A stretch of DNA of 63,454 bases, counting the filler, from Octopus bimaculoides (taxonomy: Eukaryota), in the NCBI RefSeq assembly GCF_001194135.2. It is 6 parts of 6 records of this genome, joined end to end, with 100 filler letters (N's around TTAATTAATTAA, not from the genome) between each part and the next. Parts side by side here need not be neighbours in the genome. Positions count along the whole stretch, not along the records: positions 1 to 11,118 come from NC_068998.1; positions 11,219 to 28,837 come from NC_068988.1; positions 28,938 to 49,826 come from NC_068984.1; positions 49,927 to 54,526 come from NC_068994.1; positions 54,627 to 61,997 come from NC_068983.1; positions 62,098 to 63,454 come from NW_026420048.1. One strand, 5' to 3'. The stretch's first letter is position 1. Every line of letters begins with the position of its first letter. Of this stretch, positions 4,310 to 63,454 are shown piece after piece. The notes beneath the pieces are model-generated. The model was given only the letters and a program-made list of their open reading frames with translations. It had not been told where the DNA came from and searched no databases. The translations under genes were made by a program, and so were the position numbers.

Positions 4310-4770
4310 GCGTATATATCTATATTATTTAATAGACACGATACATATTTTATGTCTTTATGTGCTACTTATAGTTTCATGTGTTGAGAAATACCTCGAA
4401 CATATTCATCAGGCACAAACCACATATCACAACGAACTAAAAATTGAATGAAAGGAAAAACGCGAAAAGTTGTGAAGAGATCTTATAGAAAACGTGAAAG
4501 GTTAAAAAACCGATAAACGAAAACCGGAAAACGAAAAAGTAAAACGTAAAAAGTAAAAAAGAAAGTTTTAAAAATTAACTCCCTTAGACCTTAAATCGTA
4601 AGGTTGGAGAGATATCAAGTAAATCAGGTATAAGCGGAATTTTCCAGTTCTTCAAAATGTACTTAGATATATGTTTACAACCGCTGAAAATTTCAGACCT
4701 AGAGTTCAGTAGCGAGTTAAGGATCTGAAAAGGGCCTGAGCTCTTTCAGCTAAACGGAAGAGTGCATTGT
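4310..4770 (-). mobile_element. Short HHR-bearing repeat (solo pLTR-like)
   Basis: Non-coding U-rich block ending in the 4361-4417 HHR and flanked by (AT)n; boundaries approximate. Confidence 0.45.
4361..4417 (-). ncRNA. Type I hammerhead ribozyme, complete fold
   Basis: Minus strand: UGUGC-CUGAUGA-AUAUGUU...AACACAU-GAAA-CU-AUA-AG-UA^GCACA. Stem I 5 bp, stem II 6 of 7 pairs, stem III 3 bp, GUA cleavage triplet, predicted cut at 4366/4365. Confidence 0.8.
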
Positions 4771-4949
4771 ATATATTTATATATAATTATAGCGTGGGAG
4801 ACATATTGGATATATTGGACATATTCTTTTATGCTTTTACGTGTTTCACTTATTTGACTGCGACCATTCTGGAGCACCGCCTTGAATATATTAGCTATTC
4901 AAAAACACTGGACGATCCTGTGGAGTTTCATCTTTTTCACATCACAAAT

Positions 4950-5165
4950 ATGATAAGAAAGCATGGGTATTTGGTATAACCAGATGTCCATGAGAAAATC
5001 CACCATCTTAAATCAATGCAGATGACCCATTTTTGACCATGATACAGCATCTTCTCTAAAATCAACTTAATTCCTTCATATTTTTCCTTCGGAGTTGTTG
5101 AGTGGCCCCGAGTGGGACAGAGCCATACACACGCGAGTACATGCATAAAACTAAAGATACCAATC
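4950..5165 (-). mobile_element. DNA transposase fragment, Chapaev3-like (CMC/Transib-related)
   Basis: YGSVPLGHSTT.KEKYE, KWVICIDL, SGYTKYPCFL across frameshifts; family name assigned from memory of the motif. Confidence 0.55.
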
Positions 5166-5402
5166 TACACATGCAATGTCTCCAAATACTGCACATATAC
5201 ACACATACATGAAAAAATACCATGTTGATGTTAAAATTCCAGTGAAGGGTCCTTGGTTCTAGATTAGAAACCGGCTCTCTATTGGCAAGAAATCTTGAAA
5301 TAAAATTGAATAATGACATACATACATACATACATACATACATATGTACTACGTATGTACCAGAGGCATTGCTATGTTCTAAAATGAGAACAAATTTATT
5401 TT

Positions 5403-5940
5403 CAGGAGTGGCTGCGTGGTAAGTAGCTTACCAACCACATGGTTCCAGATTCAGTCTGACTGCGTGGCACCTTGGGCAAGTGTTTACTATAGCCGACCCA
5501 AGCCTTGTGAGTGGATTTGGTAGACGGAAACTGGAAGAATATGTGTGTGTATGTGTGTTTGCGTGTGTGTGAGTGTGTGTCTGTTTCCCCCCCCCCCNNN
5601 NNNNNNNNNNNNNNNNNNNNNNNNNNNNNNNNNNNNNNNNNNNNNNNNNNNNNNNNNNNNNNNNNNNNNNNNNNNNNNNNNNNNNNNNNNNNNNNNNNNN
5701 NNNNNNNNNNNNNNNNNNNNNNNNNNNNNNNNNNNNNNNNNNNNNNNNNNNNNNNNNNNNNNNNNNNNNNNNNNNNNNNNNNNNNNNNNNNNNNGTACGT
5801 CCTTGTAACTTAGCGGTTCGGAAAAAGGGACAGATAGAATAAGTACTAGGCTTACAAAGCCCTGGGGGTTGATTGGTTCGACTAAAGGTTGTGCTCCAGC
5901 ATGGCCGCAGTCAAATGACTGAAACAAATAAATGAGTAAA
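5403..5940 (+). mobile_element. SINE family A, interrupted by a gap
   Basis: TGGCTGCGTGGTAAG head to CAGCATGGCCGCAGTCAAATGACTGAAAC tail. Confidence 0.85.
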
Positions 5941-6530
5941 AGAATGTGCATTTCAGCATGACTAAATCTCATTTTTTAAAGAACTGAAACCGGTAGCATA
6001 CATTGGTAAACACTTTTCCTATGATAAAATTTAATACGTTGACTATTGAATTTATTCGTTTTTCCCGCTGAGATCAATCTTGCTTTGATCCCGCTGAGAT
6101 CAATCGGGTGTGGAAGAGGTGGCTGTCGGTAAGTATATCGTCAGTCAATTACTACGGTCCTGCCGCGGTGAGGGGCCGAGGTGTTGGGAGAGCAGAACGT
6201 TTCTGCGACAACAGAACGGGTGGAGGAAACCTGACACACGCCGTTTAAAATCCACAGAGTTTTCGGAAGTTATGCGCGCATTCCAAGTGTCAACAGAGAG
6301 ACATATGCTAGAGATGACGACGACGACGGTGATGATGATGATGGTGGTGATGATGATGATGGTGGTGATGATGATGATGGTGATGATGATGATAAAGAAG
6401 AAGAAGAAGAAGATGATGATGATAGCTATGATAAAATCATGATGACGAAGATGACGATGATGATGACGACTACGATAATGAGGTTGATGACCGTGATGTT
6501 AATGAAGAAGATAATGGTGTGATGATGGTA

Positions 6531-6730
6531 GTGGCGATAATGATGATGATGGCGATGATGATGATGGCGATGATGATGATGGCGATGATGATGATGGCGA
6601 TGATGATGATGGCGATGATGATGATGGCGATGATGATGATGGCGATGATGATGATGGCGATGATGATGATGGCGATGATGATGATGGCGATGATGATGAT
6701 GGCGATGATGATGATGGCGATGATGATGAT
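6531..6730 (+). repeat. 15-bp minisatellite (GATGATGATGATGGC)n, about 13 copies
   Basis: Near-perfect higher-order repeat within a (GAT)n field. Confidence 0.92.
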
Positions 6731-7246
6731 TCCGACACTTCCCGCCACTACCATCACACACACACACACAGGTGTCAATGAAATTAGTAATGTAGCTGAA
6801 AAACGTTAAACACTCCCATACATACGCACGCACACACGCACACACACACATATACACGCACGGTGATATTAATACTCAAGCACGTGTATGTATATGTAAT
6901 TATACATGTTATGTATTTCTATACTGTACATGTGTATATTCACATGCGTATATATACATATACATGAATGAACATAGAAAGCATTATATACACAGACATG
7001 TTATATATATTTTATAAATACATACGTATATATATATACGTGTGTGTGTGCGTGTGCGTGTGCGTGTGTGTGTAATTATGTATGTCTATAGGATAATTGT
7101 AAGTATATAAGTTTCCCTTTGGGGCTATAGATTTATATACACTCGCGTATATACACAACGTGGTCATTTACATCCATCATAAAGTCAGCCGTACTTTAAG
7201 ACAAACATATGTTATTTTTCCATGAGTGTGTGTGTGAGAGAGAGAA

Positions 7247-7330
<84 letters not shown>

Positions 7331-7636
7331 TGTGTGTGTGTGTGGGTGTGTGCGTGTGTGTAATGCAATGGGAAAGAATATGTGATTTAATTACTTCATC
7401 AAAATAGCTACTATCAAACGAGGGGACTGAGAATTCGGCGTTTTCAGAAGCCGTCACCAGATAAGAGCGAGTCGCTCTAGTAACGAGTAGCTTGTACTTT
7501 TCCGGATCTGGTACTCTTAAAACAATATAAACATGTACTCCACTCACGTGCGTGATGGACTGTAATAATACAGAAAGCTGAAACTGCTCAGGAGAATTCA
7601 AACGTGTACTCCCACTGCTACCCTCTTAAACGGTTA

Positions 7637-7693
7637 GATGGGTGCTGATGAAGAGGTAAAAAACATTCCTGAAATATAGCATATACGCACATT
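7637..7693 (+). ncRNA. Type I hammerhead ribozyme-like motif
   Basis: CUGAUGA 7645-7651; AGG/CCU stem II after two extra nt; GAAA 7671-7674; AUAU/AUAU stem III; AUA triplet; stem I pairs at 7 of 8 positions (two are G.U). Confidence 0.6.
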
Positions 7694-8434
7694 ACTCATT
7701 TTTCATCTTCGATCTCATTGTTTGTTTAAATCTGAAGTCTCGGATACGAAACGTCGTAACAAAAGCAATGAGGCTATAATTTCTATACAATAACGAAATA
7801 CTGAGTACCTACAATTCATTAACCTTTTATAAATGCCATAAAGTAGGCACGGCCTAACATAACATTGGTTAAAAGACTGTTTCGATAAAAAATGTATAAC
7901 CAGATAAATGGAGCAATCTCCGAAATTGCAAAGATAATCTGGAACTCGACTGAGGATAGAAAACTCCGAATGACCTATCCTTGTTTTCCTTGTATCGTCT
8001 TTCTGGATGTTTTGTTGTCCCTTTTTTGTGGATGTTTTGCGTTCTTGTCCGATTTTTGTATTATATATANNNNNNNNNNNNNNNNNNNNNNNNNNNNNNN
8101 NNNNNNNNNNNNNNNNNNNNNNNNNNNNNNNNNNNNNNNNNNNNNNNNNNNNNNNNNNNNNNNNNNNNNNNNNNNNNNNNNNNNNNNNNNNNNNNNNNNN
8201 NNNNNNNNTTCGCATCGCTTTAACTCTTGACTGATGCCGCTCAACTGTTAGGTGGGTAGGCCACGAACACCCCTGAACGAGACGCTAGTCTGTAGCCTGT
8301 CTAGCTATTGGTTGACTTTGCCTTTTATCTTTTCGGGGTCGATAAAATCAACTAGCCCCCTGGCACGAAATTTCTAGCGCTTGCCAAAATTTGAAACCAT
8401 CATTAAATAACAGTTTAAAACGGCGATTTGGCAT

Positions 8435-8600
8435 AATCGTTAGCATCCTGGACGAAATGCTTAGCGGTATTTCGCCCGTCGCTACATTCTGATTTCAAAT
8501 TCCGCCGACGCCGACTTTGCCTTCCATCCTTGGAGCTCGATAAATTAAGTACAAGTGAAACACTGAGATCGCTGTAATCGACTATTCCTCCTCAGAAACA
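8435..8600 (+). mobile_element. tRNA-derived SINE family B (other copies at about 14440-14810, 29270-29715, 30960-31130, 32755-32960, 36555-36750, 46735-46880, 55065-55310)
   Basis: CGTTAGC...AAATGCTTAGC...TCAAATTCCGCCGA...GACTTTGCC...GATAAATTAAGTAC. Confidence 0.8.
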
Positions 8601-9050
8601 AAAAAATTTCAGGCCTTGTAATTATAGTAGAAAGGATTATTAAATAACAGTTTTATTAGGCTCCATGCAACTTAAAATTTCGTAGATTCGTCAAACGAAC
8701 CATCTCGTCAGGATCGTTGAAACCGAACGAGTCCAAAATGGGCTCAGGATTTTGAGCTGCTATTTATTGGTCAACGCAAGGTACATAGCGTTATCAATTT
8801 GGTAGCGACAGCGATAACAATTGTGTAATCCATCTTGAATTCCTAGTACCACCTGCTAGAACAGGATGTTCAAATTCTGTACTCCTATCAGAATTCCATC
8901 GTGTTATAAGTAGGTGAATTGGGATACGCTGTTTGCTAACTCCGTTATTCTATATTTATACACAAGTATACATTACACAGAAACGTATACACACATATAT
9001 ATATAGCCTAAGCACATGCACATATACACACACAGATAAAAACCTACTTT

Positions 9051-9229: not shown

Positions 9230-9430
9230 TGACTGCGTGTGTATCGTTGGCGACTTTCTTTCTCCGTCTTCCCTTCTTTGGAATTTTTCTACATTTCTGA
9301 TGAAGAGCTCCGCTCGAAACGTGAAATCCTCTTTTTTGTTTCTTTCCTTTCCTGAGCGTCCAATAACACAGTACTTGTACCACGCCCTCGCGCTGCTGTT
9401 TTTTCTTGCTTGTTCTTGCTTGAATTGACT
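9230..9430 (+). mobile_element. Short HHR-bearing repeat (solo pLTR-like)
   Basis: Pyrimidine-rich block around the 9293-9327 motif, ending in an AT/AC microsatellite. Confidence 0.45.
9293..9327 (+). ncRNA. Minimal PLE-type hammerhead motif, probably inactive (G at cleavage position)
   Basis: AUUU-CUGAUGA-A-GAGC(UCC)GCUC-GAAA-CGU-G-AAAU, with palindromic ACGU stem III. Confidence 0.55.
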
Positions 9431-14300: not shown

Positions 14301-17300
14301 GACATGCACTAAATAAATAAATAAATAAATAAAAACTCGTCGATGTACTGCAAGACGCTGCTAATCTACCGCCATGTTTATAGGAAAATGTTTCTAATTC
14401 AGGTAAAATGCCAATAGATTTTTGAAAGGAAAGGATAATCAATTATATCGACCCTAGTACTTGATTGTAATTAATCTTATTGACCCCAGAGGGAAGAAAG
14501 GCAAGTTGGCCACAGTAGAATTTGAACTCATAATGTAAAGAACCGAAACAAATAGAGTAAAGTATTTTCTCCGATGCTCTAATGATTCTTCCAATCTGCA
14601 GTAAAATCAATAACAACAATAGCATTATGGATTCTGCTTTAGGCGTAAGACTACCAATTTTGAGGGGAGTGATTAATCGAATACTTGAGTACTTTGTTTT
14701 ATAGATACCCAAAGGATGAAAGGGAGTTGGTCTCTGCGAGCTTTGAACCCTGAATGTAAAGGCTCGGAACAAGCTATTTTCCCCGACACTCAAACGATTC
14801 TGCGTGTCTGATCTTTGACAAAATACTTACTTTTTTCTTCATCTTGCAAATTTTAACTTTAGTAGTTCAAATGTGTTAAAATTGTGAGGATTCTAAGGTG
14901 GGGCGCTTTCAAATCCGTTTGAACTCCGGATAAAATGCCGAGTGGTGTAACTTCAAAGTTCAAATTCTGCTGAAGTCAACTGTCCCTATCATCGTATCAG
15001 GGTCCACAAAATAAGTACCAGGCGAACACTAATGTGACTGAGAGGGATACATCAAGGACACGTGTTTGTAATGATAAGAGCATAGAGAATCAAGGACAAT
15101 TATCTTCTCAGTCGCCCGCTCGTATGCTCTCAACACCACTGTGGTCGTTTCCATAGCCTCATTAATATCATTAATCTCTGCATGACTCATGAATAGTTAC
15201 CTCATGTTTTCCAAGAAGTAATGTATTCACTTATTTAGTATAATGTGTTGCTGATAGTAATATTTTTTTGATTGAATACTATCAACTCTTAATAAAACAC
15301 TAATTTCTCTGAATTAAAAATTGAATAGAGAACTAAATATTCATTAAGTCTCTTGATAACTACAAACGTCACATATTTTGTGTTAATCATTTAAGAATTA
15401 TAAATTCATTAAGGAATCGAACAAACAAACAGTCGAATTATCTTTTAATATTTCAATAATTATATTTAGATGTTAGATAATGAGTGTTTATATATAGAGC
15501 GGTATTTCGGAAAAAAAAAACAGAAAAATGTGTGTGCATGTGTATGCGTTTGTGCGTGTGTGTGTATGTGTAACGCTGTGTGCGAATATGTTTTTGGCGA
15601 GCACGTGGTAGATTTTTTGCCCAAATATTTGGTTTTAAAAATCCAGACATATCGGTTTGACTGTATGATAAAGAAGTTCGTTTCGCAATCACGAAAATTC
15701 TAGGTTATATTCCACTGCACAGCGCATCGAATTAACTCGGGTCTTCTGAATGACATTCGATAAATAGAAACATGTTTTCGTCCAGTAAATTAGTAATTCG
15801 ACAAAATATGAATAAAATAAAGAATGGGATCGAGAGGAGGAGGAGGAGGAGGAGATCTAGGTAGTTGGCTGTAGCTGAAAATGTCTCTGCATTATATAAT
15901 GCACTAAATACTGGGTTCTCATAGTAGTGGCGATGACTAACTAAGGCTGCTGGACAATTATTAAAACTTGTTCAAGAAAAAGAAAATTTATACAACTATA
16001 TTAGAGAATATCAGTATAAGCGCCTACATACTTTGGTTATTCCATCATACTTGAACTGAAATCATATAATATTTCTTAAAATGAAAATAGCATCACGGTT
16101 AATCTCTGTTTAATAATAGTAAATATAAATGTTAGTTGGTTAGTTGATTTTGAATCATGCTTTACATCGTGCAAAAAGTGGAGAAGAGAGAGAGTAGAAA
16201 GGAGATACGAAGAGAGTTAACATGATAAGTGTAGAATGAGTGCACATATAAGGCTTAGTGGCAAACAATAAGTCAAAGAACGCTGCGCACTCACAATGAG
16301 ACAGAAAGAATCATAGAGACGGAAAGCGAAACGGAGGAGGAGGGGGAAACAGCAGAAAAATTGGGTATGGCCGAAGTCTAATGGATGAAACAAGGAAAAA
16401 ATAAAGGAAAGATACATACAATATGTATAATTTAACTATAACCAAATTACCATGTGGAAAAAGTGTTCTACCAGAGTTATGTTATGAGGGTAACACACCA
16501 GTCAGTTTATAATATAGCTTATCTGTTTCGATACATCGACATATAAACAACAGTCTATTATTTACGATATTTATGACGCTGCTAATATTTAATTTTACCA
16601 TATTCCTATGTGGCTTCCGCTTTCTATGATTCGTCGTTGTTTTAACCATCACAATAACAGCAAACAACTATTCACTCTCCATACCTAATACTATTAACCA
16701 GACCCGTGGGGTTAACACATACATATGTACTTACATATATACATATATACATACATACACACACACACATCACATCACATAAATGTATCTCTGTATCTCT
16801 ATAGATTTTCTATAGAATTCAGAGACAGTACTATAAGTTACAACGTTTCATATACGAATACGTCTATGTAAACAACGCATATTTAATTGAACAATGCAAT
16901 CAGTACAATGCAATCAGTACATCAATTTAAATGCAGTGCTATCATCAGCTGCACAAATAAATAGAATCGTAACCAGTTCGACATATTAATATAGTCTTTC
17001 TCAAATATTTCAACAGAGCTAGTAGATGGAAGAAATTCATGTTGTCGTTATTGTAGCTAAGAATAGACTAGACTAAAAGAAGGCTGGCTAGAGGAAGACT
17101 CTAAATCATGATGTTAATTACCAGTTAAAGGGGCAAGACACTAATAAAACCTGTGATGTTAATACAGAGGAAATTTTATCATGGGGTACTATGGATGATT
17201 GTTTATAAACAATATTGTTATGTTGTATAAAGATAAAATTTAAGATTATCAAAAATGATATTATAACCAAAATAGATAAAATGTGTGTATATATCAATTA

Positions 17301-17661
17301 TCAACATTAAAAAAGAAAGATTACATAAAATCAGTTTAATATGCATTCATGCATTTAATTAATTACTCATTAGATGGTTTCTATAAAGACTGCACAGGGC
17401 GTTAACTTGTAGAATACTGGAAAGATAAACATGCTATCTATATAATAATTATAAGTCAAGAATAAAAAAAAAATTAAAAAAGACTAAAGATGTGTACAAA
17501 TACACACACATATTTATATATGTGCACACTTACACAAATATTTATACGTTTATATGGATATAGTATAACCGTCTCGCATAGATTTAAGTAACTGAAAAGT
17601 ATTTATTTATGAACAAGAAAAATAATTTATAAGGGATAAGAGGTTAATAGGTCATGCACAT

Positions 17662-17988
17662 ATAAATAAAAAGGAGCACTCCGTCGGTTACGACGACGAG
17701 GGTCCCAGCTGATCCGATCAACGGAACAGCTTGCTCGTGAAATTAACGTGCATGTGGCTGAGCATTCCACAAACACGTGTACCCTTAACGTAGTTCTCAG
17801 GGAGATCAGCGAGACATAAAGTGTGACAAGGCTGGGCCTTTTTTGAAGTACAGACACTACTCATTTTTGCCAGCTGAGTGGACTGGTGAAACGTGAAATA
17901 AAGTGTCTTGCTCAAGGACACAACGCGTCGCCGGGAATTGAACTCACGACCTTACATTCGTGAGCTGAATGCCCTAATTACTAGGCCA
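17662..17988 (-). mobile_element. tRNA-derived SINE family D (head also at 53715-53885, plus strand)
   Basis: A box TGGCCTAGTAATTAGG and B box GAGTTCAATTCC on the minus strand. Confidence 0.8.
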
Positions 17989-18699
17989 TGCACATATATG
18001 CATATATACACATATACAAATATTTATACGTTTATATGGATATAGTATAACCATCTCCCATAAGCTTATGTAGCTGAAAAATCTCTAAGAACAGTAACAA
18101 CTTATAATGGATAAGAGTTTAATAGGTAAGGATATCAAAATAAGAAAACAAAATAATAAGAATTTATAGAAAATAATAAGAAATACATATAACCTCTATT
18201 TAAAGAGACGGGGTATTAAAATTTGAGGTAAGGAAGAAACAGAGGTAACCCGAAAAGAGGAGGTAGTAGGTATGGATCTAGTGAGGGCAGTTAGAGGTAT
18301 TCAGACCGAAGAGACTTTATAAATTGTAATGTTACAGGTGCTATTATAGATATATGATTTTATAATACCTAGGGGGCATATAATCAGGAGACTTACTTAC
18401 ATAAAGTCATTAAATATATATACATATTATCAGTAGTGTAGACATCATAGAAAAGAAAATAATAGTTTAATTACCAAAAATATGATGAAGTCAGACTAAT
18501 TGAGCAGGAGTTATCATGGAATAGTAATTACATTTTGCGCACCACATACCATAACATATAGCTTATAACATATGCAATGCAATTTAATTCACCATATAAC
18601 ATAATATCCCATGATTTTATTATATTTAATACTAGAGGGTAAGTTTACAACGGATACGATACCAAAATTAATTTCCACCATCAAAGTTCAAGTATGGCA

Positions 18700-20570
18700 C
18701 CTATAATCGGTAATTTCGAAAATACTTAAATGTACGGGTGACACAATGCACGCATAATACCCTTAGGTCTAATCTATTATCATTCAGGTTGTTCTTGTCC
18801 CTATACTTAAAAATCTGATAAGTTTCCGTAGAGTACAGCTCACACCCGTATCGACGATCTCTCTAAGGCTGCGCTTTTTGTATTATATTTCATTTAAGGC
18901 TAAATTCGATCCCGCTTTCCTTCAGTTCCCAAATCTTTCTAGATAAGGATGTACAATTGGCTTTATATTTTAGTCTAAAAGATGAAAAATGGTTATTGAT
19001 ACGGTTTTTCATATTTATCGAACATCCTATTGTACATTTATAAATTATGTTTTGGATTAAACATCGGCCTAATAACTGACAGTGGGATTTAACTCTACAA
19101 TTGGAACAAGGAGAATAACTGCTATTAATATTATTGATATTCCTATTATCATCATTATTATTGTTGTTGCTATTATTATCATTATCACTATTATTATTAT
19201 TCTTCATATTACTACTATCGTTTGTGTTATTTTTAATTCTGTTATTATTTATACTTCCTTCAACTGTAGTATCATTCAAATTCATCTTAGCATTAAGAGG
19301 CATTGTGTCAGTAATCCCTGAGCTAGTATAAACCTCGGAGTTACAGTCTATATTGTACATATTAGATGTGTTAGTACTGTTGTTTCTAATTCCTACATCA
19401 CTATTAATATTATTCTCATTGTCGAGGGTTAAACTAGTGTTGATAATAATATTATTATTAAACCCTCTTGCCGATTTTATATTATGTCTATTTAACCTGG
19501 CTATGATGGTACTTATATTGGGGAGGGTAGAATACGAGATTCTAACTGTCTTACGGGAAAATATTTTATTATATCTATGAGAAGCAGGGCAGTTTTTTTC
19601 TGAAATTGCCATAAATTTGTTATATATGTTTGTGGATATGGCACAATTGAAGAGAACGTTATACCAGACCAAACCTTTATTTTCAAACTTCTTACGTATG
19701 TAAGGGCGGAATTTACCTGCTCTTTCAACGCCTCCCAAAATCGCGACTTGATTATTAGGTACGGCTATATTATCAATATTTTCCTCATCATTAGAGGGTG
19801 GCATAATACACTCAGTCACCTCACTACCTTTATTATATAAACTGATATTTCTACTGGTTATTGCATCTAATTTCATGTTGTTACTTATCTTTTTATTTAA
19901 ATTGATGGGTTTGTTTGATGCTTTCATAGTTGGTCTGTTTTCCCGACCAAGGAAGACTGTATTCCCCCTCTCACTTAAAATCTCATTTTTTTCTACTATT
20001 AGTAGGTGTTATACTTTCTGGATAATGAAAAGTAATTCCATGGTTGTATCCTGCCTTAGACAAACCGAAGTTATAGTGGTGGTAATGGGTATTAAAAATA
20101 TCTTTATTTGCTGATAATTTCGTAATTATTTTCGAAATACTTTTGACTAATGATCTTAATACATTGGGTGCGGGATTTGATGTTTTGTTCACATACCTCG
20201 TAACTTCACCTAGTTTCCTATAGGGGTGGTATAATCCTGAGTTAATGTTTAATGTAGTATCCAAGAAGTTTGTCACCTTTGTGGCATATTCAAATGTAAT
20301 TCCTAAGATGACCGGTTTGTTGTCGCTAGGGATAATAAATAGAGCATTATCTCTTTATAAACCTCCCTGCAATTCAGGGATTTCACTATCAAGGTACTTT
20401 AAGAGATACGCACCACCTAGGTTAGTAATTTCCGCCGAATCACTGGAGCCCATAGCTATATCAAACCTTGACTACGGCTTACCCTCAAATTCTATGAAAG
20501 TCATCCTGGCTAAAAGAATAATGTAATTTTTATCCTTAGTTATGAGATAGCGGTTTTTTGCGAAAATTAG
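18700..20570 (-). pseudogene. Penelope-like element ORF remnant: 5'-truncated RT, thumb, and C-terminal GIY-YIG-type endonuclease
   Basis: FDIAMGSSDSAEITNLGG, GL*RDN (YRDD motif), NFLDTTLN, YHPYRK, WYN, KIFSRKTVRISYSTLPN, CSNCRVKSHCQLLGRCL, KNRINNH, TSLSRKIWELK; several in-frame stops and one frameshift. Confidence 0.9.
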
Positions 20571-20789
20571 AGATATTTTTCTTTTTCATATATAGATACT
20601 TTTCAGTTACTTAAATCTATGCGAGACGGTTATACTATATCCATATCAACGTATAAATATTTGTGTAAGTGTATGTGTTCACATATATAAATATGTGTGT
20701 GTATGTGTACACATCTTTAGTTTTTTTATTTTTTCTTATTCTTGGCTTATAATTAATATATAGATAGCATTCCATAAGTAGTGGGTAGC

Positions 20790-21135
20790 GATTTTCTTCA
20801 CTACTTCAGAGAGTGACGACCCTGCCTGACACGAGTCCCAGGCTCAGCTGGCTCCGGCTGACAGTACCCGGTATGGGCTCCTATTCAGGGTTACGGAAAG
20901 GAGACAACCTTCAAAGAAATCCTGAGTGGAGCCCCGTAGGCGGTTTAGTGTTTGATTCGACACTCTTCCGGCAGCTCCTGCAACCAAGCTGGTGTCAAAC
21001 GTAATGCTCTGCACTCCTTTGGACTACGTCAGCAAGGTCGATAGAAGAATCCTGATGATTGAGCTATCCAGGATTTCCTTACATCTAGCCCAGGCTTGCG
21101 CAAAACTGGAGAGGAAATTGGAGAGGACATGAAAT
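20790..21135 (+). mobile_element. GC-rich block resembling an RTE-LINE 5' UTR, present in the right arm only
   Basis: GGTGTCAAAC...GCACTCCTTTGGA...CCAGG motifs; absent from the left arm; family assignment from memory. Confidence 0.4.
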
Positions 21136-24041
21136 GTAAAAACTACACTAGATTAGTTTATGCGCACTCCATTATCTCCCGAGACAAAAGGATGCCAACA
21201 ACAAATTCTATAAGTAAATGCCCTGTGCAGTCTTTATAGAAACCATCTAATGAGTAATTAATTAAGTATATGAATGAATATTAAACTAATTTTATGTAAT
21301 CTTGCCTTTTTAATGTTGATAATTGATATATACACACATTTTATCTATTTTGGTTATGATATCATTTTTGATAATCTTAAATTTTATTTTTTATATAACA
21401 TAACAATATCGTTTTTAAACAATCACCCTTAGTACCCTAAGATAAAACTTCTTCTGTATTAACATCCTAGGTTTTTATTAGCGTCTTGTCCCTTTAACTG
21501 GTAATTAACATCATGATTTAGAGTCTTCCTCTAGCCAGCCTCATTTTATAGACAGTTACTTTATATCCAATTGAGTACTCCTAATACCTTCTTCCCTCCC
21601 TGAAGAAAAGGGATACATATGACAATATTTATGATCATACCTAGCCATGAGCTGTCAACTCACTCTTGCCCATCATTCTAAACAGGCACAGTCCTCTAAT
21701 CTTAGATTTAGTAATCGATAAAAAGACAATTAAATTAGAAATGAACCACAATCATTCACAAGCTATGACTCCAGTGGGCTTCGTGCCATTCTTGGAAGTC
21801 TAGTCTATTCTTAGCTACAATAGCGACAACATGAATTTCTTCCATTTCTTGCTCTGTTGAAATATTTGAGAAAGATTATGTTACTATGTCGAACTGGTTA
21901 CAATTCTATTTATTTATGCAGCTGATGATAACACTGCATTTAAATTGATGTACTGATTGCATTGTTCAATTAAATGGAGCCACTTGAAACGGTCGTACTG
22001 CATCCCTTCTTGATATCCAATTGCTTATTTATATATATATATTAAATGCTAGCAAGAACACAATATTTCGTTTTGCAACCATAATATACTACAAAGTATA
22101 TTACTAGTATACATGTTAATATTGCGCTTTACTTTTGTGTTAGCAGTGCGATATTCTAACTCTTAAGTGTATGTAAATTGGCCTATCCAACCGTGTTACA
22201 CCGCTAAACTTAGTGGCTAACACAGGTAGTTCATGAATAGTTGATTGATTGATGTGGTACAGATGAAAGAGTAATAACTCTTTAAATATGCGTTGTTTAC
22301 ATAGACGTGTTCGTATATGAAATGTTGTTACTTGCAGTACTGTCTCTGAATTCTATAGAAAATCTATGGAGATACAGAGATACATTTATATGTGATGTGA
22401 TGTGTGTGTGTATGTATGTATGTATGTATGCATGTGTGTATGTATGTATGTATGTATGTATGTATGTATGTATGTATGTATGTATGTATGTATGCAGGTA
22501 CGTATGTATGTGTTAATCCCACGGGTCTGGTGAATAGTATTAGGTTTGGCGACTGAACTGTTGTTTGTTATTATTGTGATGGTTAAAACAACGACGAATG
22601 GTACGTATGAGAGAGAGAGAGGGGGAGGGAAATGAGAGGGGAGAGTTGGAGGGAGAGATGGAACAAGTTGTAACTATTTTTAGCTGAGGTAGTAAAGAGA
22701 AACTAAAAACAATGGAACGTTGTTGAATCGATACAGGGGTGTATCGTGCGCCGGTGTGCGCATGTATGCACATACACATACTTATATACATACACTAATA
22801 GGCACGAATGGTTATAATATAGATAAGGTATTCATTAATGGAGATGGCAGTAGTGGTGTTTGTACTTAATAAGGAACGGATATCGAACAATTTATTTTTG
22901 TATACTGAAAACTTGAAAGCCAAAATCCATATGATATAGCGCATGCGCCTCAGTGCAAGTGATTGTTTTCACTGCCACCAATACTCCATGAACATCAACA
23001 ACAAATAAACAACAACTATCAAAAACAACTGAACATCATCATTACCGTTCATACATTTCGAACTATCATATCAACTTGTTTACTTTTTATTCTATTTCAT
23101 CTCCTCCCTGTCTCCGTTCAGTAACTTCCCTTTGTGTAACGCAAAAAGTAGGAGATATAACCAAATAATCTTTTTAATACATAGATTATATTAGACATTA
23201 TAATTACTAATTCTAGCCACAAAAATAAGTGGGCCCATTGACGTCAGTCAGTTTTTTTTGCTTCTCTCTCGAATAGCCTAACAGCATTTCACACTGAAAT
23301 TTTAGCTGTTAATCTCTAAATAATTTCATTTATACAATTATCATAGAAAGCGGAAGCCACATAGGAATATGGTAAAGTTAAATATTAGCAGCGTCATAAA
23401 TATCGGAAATAAACTGTTGTTTATATGCCGATGTATCGAAACAGATAAGCTACATTATAAACTGACTGGAGTGTTACTCTCATATGTATCTTTCCTTTAT
23501 TTTTTCCTTGTTTCATCCATTAGACTTCGGCCATACCCAATTTTTCTGCTATTTCCCCCTCCTCCTCCGTTTCGCTTTCCGTCTCTATGATTCTTTCTGT
23601 CTCACTGTGAGTGCGCAGCGTTCTTTGACTTATTGCTTGCCACTAAGCCTTATATGTGCACTCATTCTACACTTATCATGCTAACTCTCTTCGTATTTCC
23701 TTTCTACTCTCTCTTCTCCACTTTTTGCACGATGTAAAGCATGATTCAAAATCAACTAACCAACTAACATTTATATTTACTATTATTAAACAGAGATTAA
23801 CCGTGATGCTACTTCCATTTTAAGAAATATTGTATGATTTCAGTTCAAGTATATATACACATACACACACATACATATACATTAGCAATGCACCCCGGCG
23901 TTGACTAGGTGTTTATGACCTATAGCAACATTGTATTATTTATTCCTTTTTCATGGGCAGAATCGGCATACGAGGATTGTGAAGCAAACAACTCTTCTTT
24001 ATAAACATGTTTTTTCGGTCATTTTCCAATGCACAACGCTG

Positions 24042-25125: not shown

Positions 25126-25374
25126 NNNNNNNNNNNNNNNNNNNNNNNNNNNNNNNNNNNNNNNNNNNNNNNNNNNNNNNNNNNNNNNNNNNNNNNNNNN
25201 NNNNNNNNNNNNNNNNNNNNNNNNNNNNNNNNNNNNNNNNNNNNNNNNNNNNNNNNNNNNNNNNNNNNNNNNNNNNNNNNNNNNNNNNNNNNNNNNNNNN
25301 NNNNNNNNNNNNNNNNNNNNNNNNNNNNNNNNNNNNNNNNNNNNTATATATATATATTCATGTATATGTTAAAT

Positions 25375-25610
25375 AAATTGAGATAACAAGGCTAAGGCAG
25401 TGTGATATTTCTAGGACATTTTATAAAGAGAAAAGTAGTCTTACAGCTGCTTCGTGGATATAAAAGATATCCTATCATCAGAGACGATATGTGAGAGTTT
25501 CAATATAAGGAAATGGTAGAATTCATTATCTAAGAAGTTATTTCGGAAAGGGAGAGATACAGGAAGTATAAAGGGAAATATGGGAATCAAAATATTTTTG
25601 GGGATGTTAA
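25375..25610 (-). mobile_element. Short HHR-bearing repeat (solo pLTR-like)
   Basis: Block around the 25438-25485 motif, adjacent to (AT)n. Confidence 0.45.
25438..25485 (-). ncRNA. Hammerhead motif with GAAA>GAAG core change
   Basis: GUCU-CUGAUGA-UA-GGAUAU(CUUUU)AUAUCC-AC-GAAG-CAGCUG-UA-AGAC. Confidence 0.55.
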
Positions 25611-26149
25611 AGTTGCTTTTTCATTATCCTAGGAATGTTCATGAGTCTAGCAACGGTCCTTGACATAGCCTTACCTGCCTTTTGGGTCTTCTGGCTACCA
25701 AACCCTCTCATATATGTTCATGTATGTATGTTCAGTTGGCAGTTGTAAATTTAACATAGTACCGTCCTGTGTAAAATTGTAAGTTCTTTTCGAATTCAGA
25801 TTGGTTTAATTCCAGTAAGATATTCAGATCACCATTTGTAAGACAAGGATGCTGCAAAAACTTCAAACTGTGCTGGGCTGCATGTACAGAGCATTTTCTC
25901 TACTGACTGTTCTGATTTATAAACCTTCCCAAGAGCGACACGGTATTTCTGTTTGCATGCAAATTAACTACAGTATTGATTATAGTGAACACCGTTAGTG
26001 TTGACAAACATACGAACTGACCGGGTGGTACAATCTTTTTACATCACAAATACTGACAATAAACCGTATACCACAATGTGATGTTCTACAGTCTGCAACG
26101 TAGCATACGGCTAATATGCATTGACGTGGACAGTTCAAGGTATGTAACA

Positions 26150-28744: not shown

Positions 28745-28937
28745 GACTTACTTGTAAAATAGGACGTGTGCGTTCAATAATGTAATAATACAAAGAATAT
28801 ATATACATGTATACACACATATATGTACATACTTACANNNNNNNNNNNNNNNNNNNNNNNNNNNNNNNNNNNNNNNNNNNNTTAATTAATTAANNNNNNN
28901 NNNNNNNNNNNNNNNNNNNNNNNNNNNNNNNNNNNNN

Positions 28938-29224
28938 TGGCCGCATCTCTGTACATGGCTCGCACAGCTCTCACTAGCCATTCTTCTATCCCAAGTTTCC
29001 TCATTGACCACCAGATAAGGGATCGGGGGACCCTGTCAAAGGCTTTCTCCATGTCAACGAAAGCCAGGTACAGAGGTTTATCCTTGGCTAGGTATTTCTC
29101 TTGCAACTGTCTCACTAGAAATAAGGCATCAGTAGTGCTTTTACCTGGCACGAACCCAAACTGCATCTCATCTAAATTGATTCGCTCCCTAATTAGTTGG
29201 GCTATGACCCTCTCTGTAACTTTC
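28938..29224 (-). mobile_element. RTE-clade LINE RT fragment, 5'-truncated, running into the scaffold end
   Basis: QFGFVPGKSTTDALF, LAFVDMEKAFDRVPR. Confidence 0.92.
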
Positions 29225-38049: not shown

Positions 38050-38081
<32 letters not shown>

Positions 38082-38468: not shown

Positions 38469-38500
<32 letters not shown>

Positions 38501-45100: not shown

Positions 45101-48100
45101 GACAAGCACCTCCACCCAGCTTAGCCTGCATCCAGAGACATGTTTCTGAGTCTTTGCTTGTCATCAGTCTGGAGTTGCATGACCTGCTAGTCGAAGATGC
45201 CTGTCAAGCTCTTGTAAACATATAATAATTCTAGTGATATACATTCACTGATTTCAAAAATGGAAATAATACATTTCTAAATCTCTCAGAGAGATTTATG
45301 CCGTAGCAATACGATGAAGTAGTTGTATGCTGTCAACTTAATGTGACATATCTCTGGATGCAGGCTTAGCTGGGTGGAGGTGCTTGTCTCCCCCTTGTAA
45401 ACATAAGGACACGGGAAATGTGTCAAGGCCGACAGGAAGCGGTGCAGCTTCCTAGGTCTAACCAACAGTAGTATTATTCCCTTCAGGGGACTGCCACATT
45501 AAGTTGACAGCATACAACTACATCGTATTACTACTGCATAAATCTCTCTGAGAGATTTAGAAATGTATTATTTCTAAAAAAAAAGAAATGTCTGCTCAGG
45601 TTAACATCCACTAAACTGATCACAGCCCACTTTGATCCAGTGCTGATTCTTCAATCTAACTATATATTAGTACAAAAGTAAATGACGATCACAGGATGTA
45701 AATGAAACAAAACACATACAAAAATAGAAACAAAATTATTAACATAAATCAACAGTTTTAAATGAAATCTTACCTTATGTTTATCTAAGCAGCTTGCAAC
45801 ATTAGCATGGAACCGTGGCCACAAGAACAGTTTCTTGAGAAAAAGATTTTTCATTACGTTTTCAACATGGGCAAAACCAGTTGTGAAACCAGAAGGCCGG
45901 TCAGAAAAAGCCTTGATAAAACCAGTCTATAACAGATAAATATTTAGTATTTAGAACAGAACATGAATACTGCTGCCAAAGCATTAAAAATGTTATTTTT
46001 GTTGTTGAATAATTGTAATTAACCCCATCTGAACAACGGAAACCTTATGACACAGATGTAGTAGCAAGATAAATTACAAGATTATTACATCCAATTAGAC
46101 TATGCTTCAATTAGCTCTGCAAACATATTGCATTTTACAGCCATACAGGTTATGTAGGGGAGGTGCAATGTGATAGTGGATGATGATGATAATGAACATG
46201 TAATATCTAGATTTCAACTCGGTCCATTTATTTAGCTTCCTAAGAGACACAATCAAAAAGATTGGGAAGAAGCTGTATTACTGTCAACAAGTCCAACATA
46301 TACCAGCATAGAAAATAGGAAATAGAATGGATGATGACAGAAAATGCAAAAGTCAAGGTGATGCAACATTACTGTAATTACTATGGATTTTGACCTTTGT
46401 GTTTTATAACTGTTGTCTCAAGCTATTGCTATCTAGCACCTTTGGATGATCTCTACTCAACCGCTACACAACTGCTACTCAACACTCCTACCACGGCCAG
46501 ACTACCTCTATTTATATGTCTTGGGAGATCTTACTTCTTTGCCTGGGGGCGTCAACACAACAATAACCCAGCTCAGACTACAAGATTTAGAGGAAATTGG
46601 CAAAGGGACTACACTCTTCTGAGGTACATGTGTATGCTTTCTCCCCATAATAATAGAAACAAAGAGAAGAGAGAGAAGGAAGATTGATACTACAATAGTA
46701 TGTTGCCAATATTTTTATAAGGTATTTATCTATCTTTATGTTCTGAGTTCAAGTTCTGTCAAGGTCGACTTTGCTTTTCATTCTTTCGAGGTTGATGAAC
46801 TAAGTACCAGTTGAGTATTGATGTAACTGACTTAGCCTCTCCCCAAAAATTGCTGCCCTTGAGCCAAAATCTGGAATCAATATTTTATAAGGTATTGGAT
46901 ATATTAGTTGAAAGCAACCATGGATAAGTGAGGTATGTTAAAATTGCTTTGTAAGTTACCTCTTCAAACTTTTAGTTTTCTTATCTAATTAGAATATAAT
47001 GGGATATACTTTAAACTCAGAATTTCCACTTACTTTGTTTTTCTGTCGATAAAGTCTGAGAATAAATGCTTCCTGACATGAATCCAAGATTCTAAAAATC
47101 AGAAAAAATAATTATTTATCTTCAGTAAAAAAAACATTGCCCTTGAAAAATTTAAAAAGAAAGGAAAAAAAAAATTCTTTCACAATAATTTGAGACATAT
47201 ACCTCCCATCTTAACGACAGAGATGAAATGGGATTGCAAAAACGTCAATGTCATGTGGCTCACATTCACTACAGGCATTCCACTTGGATTCTAGAATGAA
47301 TCAGTTGAAGAATTTTCAAGCAGAAGACATAACACTTAAGTGAAAATATTTTCAAAAGATTTGGTAGTTAATTCTTGATATCTGTACAAACTGATAAATG
47401 CATAAAGAAGATACTGAGTGAATTACAATTTACATCTAGGAGGTTGTGAGGTACTTCCAGTCAGTTACTTCATATCAGAACTCTACTCCAGTAGAGTTGA
47501 CTAAGATATATTCATCATCATAATCATTACCACCACCACCTCCACTATTATCACCAGTGGCAAGTACAAGAGTTTATTAACTTATTTTATCAAAGTAGAG
47601 TGAAGGATGAATGGTATAGTCAACACTCTAGTGAAATTTGACCAAAGAAATGAAAGAAACACATTTAACTCATACAGAATAGATATACAAGTTCATTTAC
47701 TTTTTTATTTTTTGTAGAGGAAAGAAAGTAACTGACTGAGAAAAAAATCAAGCTTAATACACTATCAACACTGAAGAGGGCAAGAAATATGAAATGCAAA
47801 CTCAATTCAAATCGTGGAAGAATTTATGGTTAGAAGACTTAGCCTTTTGATACCAACCCACTCGAGACCAACCTGGTTCCAGAATACAAATTTCATATTT
47901 TAAACCCTTTAGCATTTAAACTGGCCATACCTGGCCCAAATACTCTACTTGTTTTATGTTCAAACTAATCAGATCGAGCTCCTCACACCTACCATGCAAT
48001 GCCATTCTAAAACTATACAATTACATCATTGAAAGCTCAAAGCTACAATGATATTGTTTGATAAATTCAAAACAATGTGAATGAAAAGCATTACATTTGA

Positions 48101-49431: not shown

Positions 49432-49826
49432 GAAGGAGTATGAAGACCGGGAAAGCCCCTGGCCCATCAGGAATCACTGCAGAGATGCTCAAAATATCTG
49501 GCAGTGTTGGCTATAGCCTAGTCACCCGTATTACGAACCAGGTGATACACGAAGGAGTCATACCCAATGACTGGTGTAGCAGCATCATAGTCAACTGCTA
49601 CAAAGGTAAAGGTGACGCTTTAGATACAAATAATTACAGAGGCATCAAGCTGTTAGATCAGGTTATGAAAGTTACAGAGAGGGTCATAGCCCAACTAATT
49701 AGGGAGCGAATCAATTTAGATGAGATGCAGTTTGGGTTCGTGCCAGGTAAAAGCACTACTGATGCCTTATTTCTAGTGAGACAGCTGCAGGAGAAATACC
49801 TAGCTAAGGATAAACCTCTGTACCTG
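49432..49826 (+). mobile_element. RTE-clade LINE RT fragment running into the scaffold end
   Basis: MKTGKAPGPSGI, YKGKGD, NYRGIKLL, QFGFVPGKSTTDA; open frame. Confidence 0.92.
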
Positions 49827-57334: not shown

Positions 57335-57899
57335 CTGCGTCTGTGTCTGTGTATGCGCGATCGTGCTCGTGTAAAATAGTGCATATTTCCTTTATATCAT
57401 CGTCGGAAATAATTGCTTACATGGACATTTGTTGGGCACTTTCGATGTAAATAACTTCGCTAAAACTAATTATTATGTAGACTATGGAGTACGTATTTGT
57501 CTTGTTTCGACTTTGTGTACCCCCAGGAAGCTAATACCAATTTGAGATGTTTTTTTTTAGGGTTGAATATAAAACGATGGGTTTTTTTTTCTTTTTCGGT
57601 TTGAATATAAAACATGTCTATTTTTCAAGTACATCCATCCATTCTAGTTAGCCTTAGAGAAAGTCTCTGTCTTTTTTGTACACCACCTGATGAAAAATAC
57701 AGTTTTCGAAACAACGTTCGCTTAGCGTAAGACTTACAACAAGAAACGTTCACGCATATTTTCATTATATCGTACATCGGAAGCTGATATTTTCTGTTTA
57801 TTCTTTTACTATTATAAAATTGTATAAACCAAAATAATTCGTTCAAGGATAAAACAGTGTGTTTTATTGGACTCATTGTTTTAATAATAATAATTATAA

Positions 57900-58806: not shown

Positions 58807-58894
58807 GGCACAAGGCCTGTAATTTGGGGTAGAATGTAAGCCAATATATCGACTCCAGTACGTAACTGGTACTTATTTCATGGACCTCGCATTC

Positions 58895-58968
<74 letters not shown>

Positions 58969-58977
58969 AAGAAGAAC

Positions 58978-60629: not shown

Positions 60630-60688
<59 letters not shown>

Positions 60689-61783
60689 TAATTACATACA
60701 TACATTCATAATTACACATACACAAGCATACGCATACACACACATACATACATACATACATGCAGTCAGTTATGTTATCCTACACTAAGAAGGTAGTTCA
60801 GTCAGTCAAACGCTGGAGTGGTTATGGCTGACACATATGGAGTCTATAAGAAAGGGAAATTGTATGTTTGTGAGCGAGCTCAGTCATTGCATAATTATAT
60901 GTTTCTTGCTACAAAGTTACATACATCCAGCCTCTGCACTTCACAGTCCGTCATTTACTTCCACGTCAATCGATTATACGAGCCAACGAAGAAGCTTCAA
61001 CGAAGAAGCGCTCGTCATGCTAGTTATAGAAGTCAAATACCTTTTATAATGCATGCTATCTATTTGAATGACTCATAGATTGATGTAGTTCTAGATGCAG
61101 AATGATCCGTCAAAATACAGGATACTTTCGACTGGAACGCTTTCTTTTTTATCATAGGTCTGCGCAAACAGGACTGATCTGAGGTTAAACAACAACTATC
61201 TGTAATTGTTGGATGGTGACATGGTGTCATGGTTCCAAGCTAAATTTCTTTACAAATTATGAATATTGCAAGGTATGTTTGTATGGAGAATTGGAAGTTT
61301 TTCTGCTCCCCCAACGAAAATAATAAATAAGCCAACTAAATAACCAAATAAAACAAGAACACTGTCAACAAGAACAACGACATCAACAGCAAGTACAGTT
61401 ACAGTAACACCAACACAGTTGAAAGAGGGTCCTGTATACGTCATAAATGTGAAATCCCTAACGTATGCTGCTACAAACTATTCAAACAATTGGTTTCTTG
61501 ACACATGTCTAGATGAATGTATATTCATTCTTTCGTTCCGTTAGAATAGCCATTTCGGTTTTCTATAGCAAAGACAAACAGCGAAAGCTATGAATGGGAG
61601 AAAATGTAAAAATCTCATTCTGGCCCAAGAGTGAAGGCAACTGACAACGCCAAAGAGCTAAAATGGCGCCTTATACCTAAGCGTTTTTTGCAATGAACGG
61701 TCTTTGCGTTTTTCAAAAATGAAAATAAAATACAATCATAGCAAAATATCGATAATAATAATTGTGATGTTAATAATAATAAC

Positions 61784-61854
<71 letters not shown>

Positions 61855-62098
61855 TAATAATAACACTGACATATTCCAAGTATTAAACATTGTCCAGAAA
61901 TGTGGGAGAAATATGTCAAAGCGATCGCAGTTGATATATATGTCATAAACTAGTCTTCAGTTGAGATAATATACATTTTTTTTTTACTGAAAACGAGNNN
62001 NNNNNNNNNNNNNNNNNNNNNNNNNNNNNNNNNNNNNNNNNTTAATTAATTAANNNNNNNNNNNNNNNNNNNNNNNNNNNNNNNNNNNNNNNNNNNNA

Positions 62099-62719
62099 AG
62101 AAGAGAAAAACAAGAACAAATCATACCATTTATAGTGACACACAATCTAAGCCACCAGAACATCTTCAATATCCCTAAAGCAAACCTACCAATCATTGCC
62201 CAAAGTAAGGAATTGAGAAATATCATTACAGATCAAAGTATAACTCTCAGTAAAAGACAACCTAAAATCTTGAAAAAGCTATTAACAAAGGCAAGGTTTG
62301 ACCTCAGCAACAAAAATCAAACATTCACTGTTTCCAAATGCAATTATAGCTGATGTGGTACATGCCAATCAATTCATACCGGCCCATATATGAACACAAA
62401 AACAGGGAAAATATTCACCAATGTGAACATGAACTACAAAAGTAGAAATCTATTCTACTGCATCAAATGCCCAAATTTTGAAGAACTGTACATTGGCCAG
62501 ACAGGTAATGCACTATCGGAACACTCACGTGTGCATCGACAACAGATTAAAAACCCAGAGGTCCACCAAATACCACTGAGTAACCATATGGCAACATGTG
62601 GTCGAAAATCTTTTATGATATTTCCATTTCATAAACTTTACAATCTGAATGAAATTGACAGAAAACGGAAAGAAAAGGACTTTATTAAGAAATTCAAATC
62701 CAATCTTAACAAACAATGA
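62099..62719 (+). mobile_element. Penelope-like element 3' end (linker Cys motif plus GIY-YIG endonuclease), Neptune-like
   Basis: IPFIVTHN, SKRQPKILKKLLTKARF, KCNYS*CGTC, NLFYCIKCP...LYIGQTG, RVHRQQI, HMATC, FIKKFKSNLN; one in-frame stop. Confidence 0.9.
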
Positions 62720-63454
62720 TTAAATTAATATTACATGGGGTTTAAAAATCTTATCCCTATAACTAAAACACAAAACATCTCTCAAATGTCATCATTTCTA
62801 AAAATAAACATTGAAAAATGGTTTGGCATCATCTCTAAAAATAGCCAAATACCTACTGCTGCTGTCCAAAGGAATGTGTATAAAGGACAAAAAGACAGCC
62901 AGTCAACTACAGTTAAAACACATCTGTCTAGATGACTGCTAGAAAGCAGGAAAGTATACTAGTCCTTATATATTTAATACTCAATATTTCATTTATGCAA
63001 TAAGACATTCAATACTTCATTTCATTTTACTATTCATATTATATATTCCATATTCTGTATCCCACATTAATTTTATAGGAATATAAATAAAACATAAAAA
63101 ACAGACAGAGTTGGAACACTTTTGAATAATATATATATATATATATTTATATCTATATATATATATCCATGTTACATGCATATAAGAAGGGATGACCACT
63201 AAGTGGACATCCAATATGCTAGAAAGAGGTCATCAAGTGGTCAGAGCTGAGATATTTGTAAATAACCCCAATGTAATCGGTAGAACTGTACGCACGTCAA
63301 ATTTTATGAAGACAATTTTTGTATAGTTCTGCAAATTATATTGAATTTAGAATCATTGTACTGATGAACCATTGGACGTTTTTACATAAGTAAAAAAGTT
63401 GATGGGGGAAACCGGTATACAATTAATTCTTTATTTTGTATATTTTTCATTTGT

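What the first reader, a model, noticed from the sequence alone, without database searches (positions are those of the whole stretch)
4361..62965. Seven hammerhead motifs in apparently unrelated short repeats within 63 kb
Seen: CUGAUGA...GAAA-type cores at 4361-4417(-), 7637-7693(+), 9293-9327(+), 25438-25485(-), 35710-35739(+), 45131-45173(-) and 62928-62961(+, degenerate). Their stems differ in sequence but keep pairing, I see no shared flanks, and several abut (AT)n tracts. Four have palindromic or near-palindromic stem III, the hallmark of PLE-associated HHRs reported to cleave as dimers. Inference: this genome hosts many independent HHR-bearing non-autonomous families, parasitic on PLEs such as the two found in this window.
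Basis: partly seen in the sequence, partly recalled or inferred. Interest (0 to 1): 0.75.

Follow-up and report, generated by a model that had tools for sequence, protein, structure and literature searches.

The report
Penelope retrotransposon tail-end hammerheads
The seven self-cutting-RNA (hammerhead) motifs are real but ordinary: five are broken-off tail ends of protein-coding Penelope-type jumping genes and two sit in short non-coding units that likely borrow such a gene's enzyme, a pattern already described in many animals, and cutting was not tested.

Summary
All seven motifs are present, and two more were missed (21916-22003+, 63355-63423+). Each belongs to a different high-copy repeat family of this 2.34-Gb, octopus-like genome. 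Family consensuses restore stems that have decayed in the window copies, so these are true type I hammerhead motifs. The window is six unlinked stretches; its density matches random stretches of the genome.

The reading 'non-autonomous families' is mostly wrong. Five of seven (six of nine) families run upstream into a GIY-YIG endonuclease gene on the same strand (four Hydra-type, two Neptune-type). They are 5'-truncated stumps of Penelope-like elements (PLEs), often ending in (TA)n and often with an inverted copy. Only sites 2 and 6 and the missed 63361 site are ORF-less permuted units (about 400, 350 and 535 nt), i.e. retrozyme-like.

Side result: three families amplified with cores predicted to be impaired (G17, U4C, a one-base insertion). 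That fits in vitro data that cleavage is dispensable for PLE insertion. The general picture is published (PMC4209133, PMC7229834, PMC8557442), and the scan noted similar elements elsewhere in this genome.

The parts
4361..4417 (-). Site 1 (family F1): type I hammerhead in the 3' UTR of a Hydra-type PLE; window stump about 4322-4750, next to (TA)n at 4119-4324
   Evidence: 760 first-look candidates; consensus intact; endonuclease remnants about 300-750 nt upstream in L015, L024, L004
7637..7693 (+). Site 2 (F2): hammerhead in an ORF-less, circularly permuted unit of about 400 nt; window stump about 7626-7792
   Evidence: 1024 candidates; consensus restores stems I and II; downstream sequence recurs at 390-460 nt offset in L035, L045, L053
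9293..9327 (+). Site 3 (F3): minimal hammerhead with G at the cleavage position (G17), in the long CA-rich 3' UTR of a Neptune-type PLE; stump ends near 9430
   Evidence: 2269 candidates; G17 in 25 of 25 aligned copies and 149 vs 24 exact matches; endonuclease 1.1-1.8 kb upstream in L300 and L301
25438..25485 (-). Site 4 (F4): decayed copy of a hammerhead in the 3' UTR of a Hydra-type PLE; stump about 25361-25730
   Evidence: 1204 candidates; consensus has GAAA and a 7-bp stem II; endonuclease upstream in L302-L304, Pfam GIY-YIG E 1.2e-4 for L302
35573..35782 (.). Site 5 (F5): head-to-head palindrome of two 3' stumps of a Hydra-type PLE, broken at the core (35710-35746 +); the family core is CCGAUGA (U4C)
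   Evidence: All 40 scored places matched on both strands with the palindromic query; 92 of the first 100 listed of 736 exact matches have C4; endonuclease 1.8-2.5 kb upstream in L365, L366, L368
44964..45575 (-). Site 6 (F6): 350-nt ORF-less permuted unit (44964-45348) with a canonical-looking hammerhead at 45131-45173 (6-bp stem I, CAAAGA loop, GUC site), plus an inverted partial copy from 45346
   Evidence: 2392 candidates; 340-350-nt direct offset in 25 of 25 loci; circular fold z -6.8; compensatory stem I changes in RNA reads
62098..63127 (+). Neptune-type PLE 3' part: GIY-YIG region 62354-62719, 3' UTR with site 7 (F7, 62928-62962; stem I 5' strand deleted here; family core CUUGAUGA), ending in (TA)n at 63129
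   Evidence: Pfam GIY-YIG E 4e-4; 14 of 24 distinct loci carry the endonuclease upstream; CTT in 20 of 24 copies
63176..63454 (+).
   Evidence: 500-550-nt offset in 6 of 24 loci; circular fold z -5.5
21916..22003 (+).
   Evidence: (1941 candidates)
16905..20354 (-). Hydra-type PLE, 5'-truncated: coding remnant about 18700-20354 and 3' UTR down to 16905, where it is cut inside the hammerhead (half motif at 16948)
   Evidence: ORFs; endonuclease aligns with F1, F4, F5 at E 1e-10 to 1e-13; UTR collinear with F9 loci L339, L344, L359, L362

Best explanation
The motifs are type I hammerhead sequences in the 3' ends of nine separate repeat families, six of which continue upstream into a Penelope-type GIY-YIG endonuclease gene while three are short ORF-less permuted units likely copied by such elements. 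SHOWN: family membership, consensus folds, upstream endonuclease, fixed 3' ends with ragged 5' ends, inverted partners, (TA)n adjacency, unit lengths. INFERRED from published PLE work: the PLE protein nicks AT-rich DNA and starts reverse transcription at a fixed internal site 80-340 nt past the ribozyme, then usually stops early. Most copies are therefore stumps that keep only the hammerhead region, often with a second inverted stump, and they then decay. The ORF-less units would be copied from multimeric or circular RNA, which explains ends that run back into their own start. Cleavage, if any, would need two motifs pairing through the palindromic stem III, or help from the protein. It is probably not required for insertion, since G17 and U4C lineages reached hundreds of copies or more.
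For: Endonuclease upstream on the same strand: F1 (3 longest of 30 loci), F3 (L300/L301 collinear at 81% over 902 nt and 80% over 844 nt including the motif), F4, F5 (3 of 7 fetched stretches), F7 (14 of 24), F9. The six endonucleases form two groups: four with CxCx5C-PL..C as in the Hydra alignment of PMC8557442 and two with Cx4CxxC...YVGQT. (TA)4 lies at the 3' end in 13/30, 10/25, 12/23, 29/29, 14/24, 12/24 and 17/29 copies of F1, F3, F4, F5, F7, F8, F9, against 3.6% background (the F5 query included the end, so that count is biased). Inverted upstream copies: 6/30, 7/24, 1/25, 14/23, 14/29, 16/25, 1/24, 7/24, 6/29 for F1-F9. Consensuses, built without regard to structure, repair the window's mismatches at sites 1, 2, 4, 5, 6, 7. 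In RNA reads of F6 relatives about half show A1631G and T1663C, and about half C1627T and G1667A, i.e. both sides of two stem I pairs (the table does not show that they lie on the same reads). PMC11167929 (main text read) reports internal RT initiation and no effect of hammerhead mutants on insertion in vitro.
Against: No full-length copy with an RT core was recovered; only thumb and endonuclease remnants. Pfam support for the upstream proteins is weak: 1 of 6 reached the cut-off, 2 more were below it, 3 had no GIY-YIG hit. Clade names rest on motif comparison, not a tree. For F2 and F8, 'no ORF' rests on 24 loci each, and the F2 unit on 3 loci. Within-family copies show little covariation because they decay neutrally. 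RNA reads show no pile-up of ends at the cleavage site and no sign of circles. Samples are the best 24-30 hits of each search, not random copies.
Confidence: 0.88

Rival explanations
1. All seven sites are dedicated non-autonomous families parasitic on PLEs.
For: Most copies of every family are short and non-coding. F2, F6 and F8 close on themselves without an ORF.
Against: Five of seven families run into an endonuclease gene with ragged 5' ends. Candidate counts fall upstream: F3 2269 to 214, F4 1204 to 93, F5 1018 to 323, as 5' truncation predicts.
Confidence: 0.06
2. The motifs are chance matches in AT-rich, repeat-rich DNA.
For: CTGATGA is not enriched; Rfam finds none; four window copies are incomplete.
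Against: Shuffles; consensus repair of stems; compensatory changes; all nine lie in sense orientation near a fixed 3' end.
Confidence: 0.01
3. The palindromic copies (sites 5, 6) are MITE-like DNA transposons with terminal inverted repeats.
For: Site 5 is a near-perfect palindrome found at many loci; site 6 has 179-nt inverted arms.
Against: The inversion point varies from copy to copy and the arms are unequal; non-palindromic F5 copies lead to a PLE endonuclease; inverted 5' copies are a described PLE feature (PMC8557442, passages).
Confidence: 0.03

Closest known systems
Minimal hammerheads of metazoan PLEs (Cervera and de la Pena 2014, PMC4209133; parts 1-2 of 4 read)
   Same: Type I motifs, short stem I, long stem II, extra base after CUGAUGA, palindromic stem III, many consensus families per genome, mostly single copies ascribed to truncated PLEs, opposite-strand pairs 100-700 bp apart; 4,000-9,000 per genome in coelacanth and Xenopus.
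   Different: No octopus is mentioned in the parts read. Here a rough estimate is 1-6 x 10^4 strict motifs. Three families have G17, U4C or an insertion at consensus level; the core variant described there is U3-A8.
Hydra-clade and Neptune PLEs (Craig et al. 2021, PMC8557442; passages and supplement rows read)
   Same: C-terminal GIY-YIG, CxCx5C or Cx2-5CxxC linker, (TA)n targeting, 5' truncation, inverted 5' copy, 3' hammerhead; Hydra-1_Obim from an octopus is listed with its hammerhead.
   Different: The listed Hydra-1_Obim hammerhead and linker differ by eye from F1, F4, F5, F9, so these look like further families. Some have long UTRs (1-2.5 kb).
Metazoan non-LTR retrozymes (PMC7229834, passages; bioRxiv 10.64898/2026.07.22.740005, abstract to methods read)
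   Same: F6, F2, F8: ORF-less units of 350-535 nt, low GC, one type I hammerhead, strongly folded as circles, PLE-like insertion marks.
   Different: Sampled copies are at most about 1.3 units or inverted pairs, not arrays with two complete same-strand hammerheads; circular RNA not shown; F8 is longer than the 220-390 nt units.
Anolis Poseidon PLE in vitro (Frangieh et al. 2024, PMC11167929; main text read)
   Same: Fixed internal 3' ends, sometimes two per family (F4, F6, F8); no RNA-seq reads ending at the cleavage site.
   Different: Another clade; here only genomic evidence.

Membership tests
Type I hammerhead (PLE minimal type) | CUGANGA, GAAA and UH core between stems I-III | tested here: met
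   Met in consensuses of F1, F2, F4, F6, F8, F9; 15-21 of 23-30 copies equal the consensus core
Type I hammerhead (PLE minimal type) | Canonical core in F3, F5, F7 | tested here: not met
   F3 G17 (149 vs 24), F5 U4C (92 of 100), F7 extra base in CUGAUGA (20 of 24)
Type I hammerhead (PLE minimal type) | Palindromic stem III allowing dimers | tested here: met
   CG, CATG, CCGG, CAGCTG, GTATAC perfect; four near-palindromes. Short hairpins are near-palindromic by nature.
Type I hammerhead (PLE minimal type) | Self-cleavage | not testable with these tools
   No end pile-up in RNA-seq, which is not a test of cleavage
EN+ Penelope-like elements (F1, F3, F4, F5, F7, F9) | C-terminal GIY-YIG endonuclease upstream of the hammerhead, same strand | tested here: met
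EN+ Penelope-like elements (F1, F3, F4, F5, F7, F9) | Telomerase-like RT core in the same ORF | tested here: inconclusive
   Only thumb-region remnants seen (F4, F7, F9); no full-length copy sought
EN+ Penelope-like elements (F1, F3, F4, F5, F7, F9) | 5' truncation, inverted 5' copies, (TA)n targets | tested here: met
EN+ Penelope-like elements (F1, F3, F4, F5, F7, F9) | Clade placement by RT phylogeny | not tested
   Hydra and Neptune names come from linker motifs only
Non-LTR retrozymes (F2, F6, F8) | Short ORF-less unit with one type I hammerhead | tested here: met
   F6 350 nt, F8 535 nt, longest Met ORF 53-54 aa; F2 about 400 nt, ORF content of a whole unit not computed
Non-LTR retrozymes (F2, F6, F8) | Tandem arrays with two or more complete units | tested here: not met
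   Only partial tandems in 24-25 loci each; arrays may be collapsed in the assembly. Filed as retrozyme-like only.
Non-LTR retrozymes (F2, F6, F8) | Expressed as linear and circular monomer RNA | tested here: inconclusive
   F6 relatives in 3 RNA runs, both orientations, 77-78% running on into other sequence

The most novel reading that the evidence does not exclude
Whole PLE lineages with catalytically impaired hammerheads (G17 in F3, U4C in F5, an inserted base in F7) amplified to become the majority form of their families. This would be natural evidence that ribozyme cleavage is dispensable for PLE retrotransposition in vivo and that the fold is kept for another role, such as a protein-binding handle near the RT start site.
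Probability: 0.35. Interest if true: 0.5.

Novelty: new member of a known kind. Interest (0 to 1): 0.25.

Why it matters
The main result is annotation: more hammerhead-bearing PLE families, and three retrozyme-like ones, in a genome type where one such family is already listed. The part of wider use is the natural series of canonical and core-variant hammerheads in successful families. It allows a direct test of the open question of what PLE hammerheads are for, which PMC8557442 calls unclear.

Tried and rejected
Rfam scan: no hammerhead hit, only microsatellite-driven miRNA matches.
Repeat finder on the whole window: swamped by microsatellites and N runs.
Half motif at 16948(-) read as a permuted type-SGC-like hammerhead: rejected; the family consensus is an ordinary type I with a long stem II, and that copy is cut by an F2-like fragment.
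Shared 3' signal pairing F2, F6 or F8 with a helper family: none beyond a 20-nt F8/F9 match.
Genome count of the F7 core by gapped pattern: 5 forward-only matches, fewer than the alignments hold, so not used.
Run search: no RNA holder listed on record; raw-read runs came by species label only, and that organism may differ from G000.
The paper on dimeric cleavage of PLE hammerheads (Lunse et al. 2017) was not held and is recalled only.
Searches for prior print: 'hammerhead, Penelope, octopus' 5 papers; 'retrozyme, octopus' 3; 'Penelope-like, hammerhead, catalytic core, dispensable' 1. By their listings, none describes these families or family-level G17/U4C cores. The library lacks most subscription journals and Repbase, and bioRxiv supplements are closed.
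Full report
Setting. The window is six separate stretches of a 2.34-Gb assembly in 145,327 contigs, AT-rich and full of microsatellites. It is probably an octopus; this is an inference from size, repeats and earlier notes. The sites lie on C18, C8, C4 and a 1,357-nt contig, so they are not one cluster.

Observation. My first scan, written after seeing the sites, gave 7 hits at score >=9 against 0.30 in 200 shuffles; CTGATGA itself is at chance level, 12 against 9.8. It also found an intact motif at 63361, and a rescan allowing a long stem II found another at 21922. Rfam found no hammerhead. A strict descriptor found 7 motifs in 502,791 non-N bases from 60 evenly placed stretches (0.1 in 20 shuffles) and 2 in the window (0.015 in 200 shuffles). 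That is one per 72 kb, very roughly 27,000 genome-wide (Poisson range about 11,000-56,000), and the window is not clearly enriched. The nine families hit 14 places in the same sample.

Families. Each site has 752-2,392 first-look candidates, which are lower bounds and not copy numbers. I aligned the best 24-30 loci per search, leaving out loci that were the same place seen twice. Consensuses restore pairs or core bases that the window copies lost at sites 1, 2, 4, 5, 6 and 7. They were not chosen for structure, so this is an independent test. All nine have palindromic or near-palindromic stem III. In three RNA runs of a related or identical species, about half the reads on F6 carry changes on both sides of two stem I pairs (A1631G with T1663C, C1627T with G1667A in L160).

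Architecture. Copies have fixed 3' ends 80-340 nt past the core and ragged 5' ends. Seven families often end in (TA)n, in 40-100% of sampled copies against 3.6% background; F2 (0 of 24) and F6 (2 of 25) do not. Inverted upstream copies occur in all nine.

Six families lead to an endonuclease on the same strand. F1: Hydra-type, in the three longest of 30 loci. F4: Hydra-type, after one walk (Pfam GIY-YIG E 1.2e-4). F5: Hydra-type, after two walks, in 3 of 7 fetched stretches. F9: the window's own element at 16905-20354(-), whose UTR is collinear with family loci and is repeated inverted at 21205-22038. F3: Neptune-type, in 2 of 30 walk loci, collinear with each other. F7: Neptune-type, in the window itself and 14 of 24 loci. 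The four Hydra-type proteins are 27-37% identical to one another, the two Neptune-type 34%. No RT core was recovered.

Three families close on themselves. In F6 the sequence after the hammerhead runs back into the sequence before it with a 350-nt period in 25 of 25 loci, in F8 with 500-550 nt in 6 of 24, and in F2 with about 400 nt in 3 of 6 loci tested. F6 and F8 units have no Met ORF over 54 aa and fold as circles at z -6.8 and -5.5 against 40 shuffles. No array with two complete same-strand hammerheads was seen, and reads show neither end pile-ups nor proof of circles. I call them retrozyme-like, not members.

Core variants. F3 has G at the cleavage position in 25 of 25 aligned copies and in 149 exact genome matches, against 24 with A, C or T (8, 7, 9). 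In other runs a C17 form makes up about 12-34% of reads or depth, with G still the majority. G17 lowers rates at least 300-fold in minimal hammerheads and 8-100-fold in stabilised ones (PMC3884650, discussion read), which also mentions unpublished genomic G17 motifs. F5 has CCGAUGA in 92 of the first 100 of 736 matches; the window's CTGATGA is a minority form. U4C lowers activity considerably yet allows viroid infectivity (PMC3088659, passages). F7 has CUUGAUGA in 20 of 24 copies; insertions near C3 impair cleavage in the same paper. Reduced is not zero, and protein help or dimers may compensate, so dispensability is inferred, not shown.

Mechanism. Most likely (0.88) these are products of PLE target-primed reverse transcription that starts at a fixed internal site and stops early, sometimes with a second inverted event. 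PMC11167929 showed internal initiation, protein-assisted cleavage and no effect of ribozyme mutants on insertion for an Anolis PLE. The ORF-less units likely use PLE proteins in trans; the lack of (TA)n preference in F2 and F6 suggests a helper other than the Hydra and Neptune types seen here (inference).

Comparison and verdict. PMC4209133 described this pattern, including single motifs from truncated PLEs and opposite-strand pairs. PMC8557442 lists an octopus Hydra element with a hammerhead. PMC7229834 and a 2026 preprint cover retrozymes and their PLE origin. Earlier notes of this scan reached similar readings on other pieces of this genome; they are not independent support. Interest 0.25.

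Noticed in passing
window 16047-23852: Nested inverted repeats around the Hydra-type PLE extend beyond the element (16047-16886 vs 22282-23852, 75-97% alike), so flanking DNA was duplicated in inverted form too; cause not worked out.
   Followed up: partly
window 16794-16875 (-): F2-like fragment without hammerhead directly after the cut sense copy of F9.
   Followed up: partly
window 7730-7765 (+), F2 consensus: A second GAAACGUC followed by a helix lies about 100 nt after the F2 hammerhead, without a proper CUGAUGA; a decayed second motif or chance.
   Followed up: no
window 57687-57725 (+) and 43545-43585 (+): Further CUGANGA...GAAA candidates with weak or no stem I; not searched in the genome.
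   Followed up: no
window 28882-29271 (-) and 49434-49826 (+): Near-identical RT fragments of a LINE (Pfam RVT_1 E 1e-4 for the second) at the two ends of the third stretch; unrelated to the hammerheads.
   Followed up: partly
L386, L412, L424, L436, L443: Five more hammerheads of other families in the random stretches; those in L386 and L412 resemble each other.
   Followed up: no
L365:2377 and 6550: Two same-strand F5 hammerheads 4.2 kb apart flank the endonuclease remnant; possible pLTR pair or two insertions.
   Followed up: no
window 37990-38530: Direct duplication around an N gap (38050-38107 and 38469-38526 and flanks), probably an assembly artefact.
   Followed up: no
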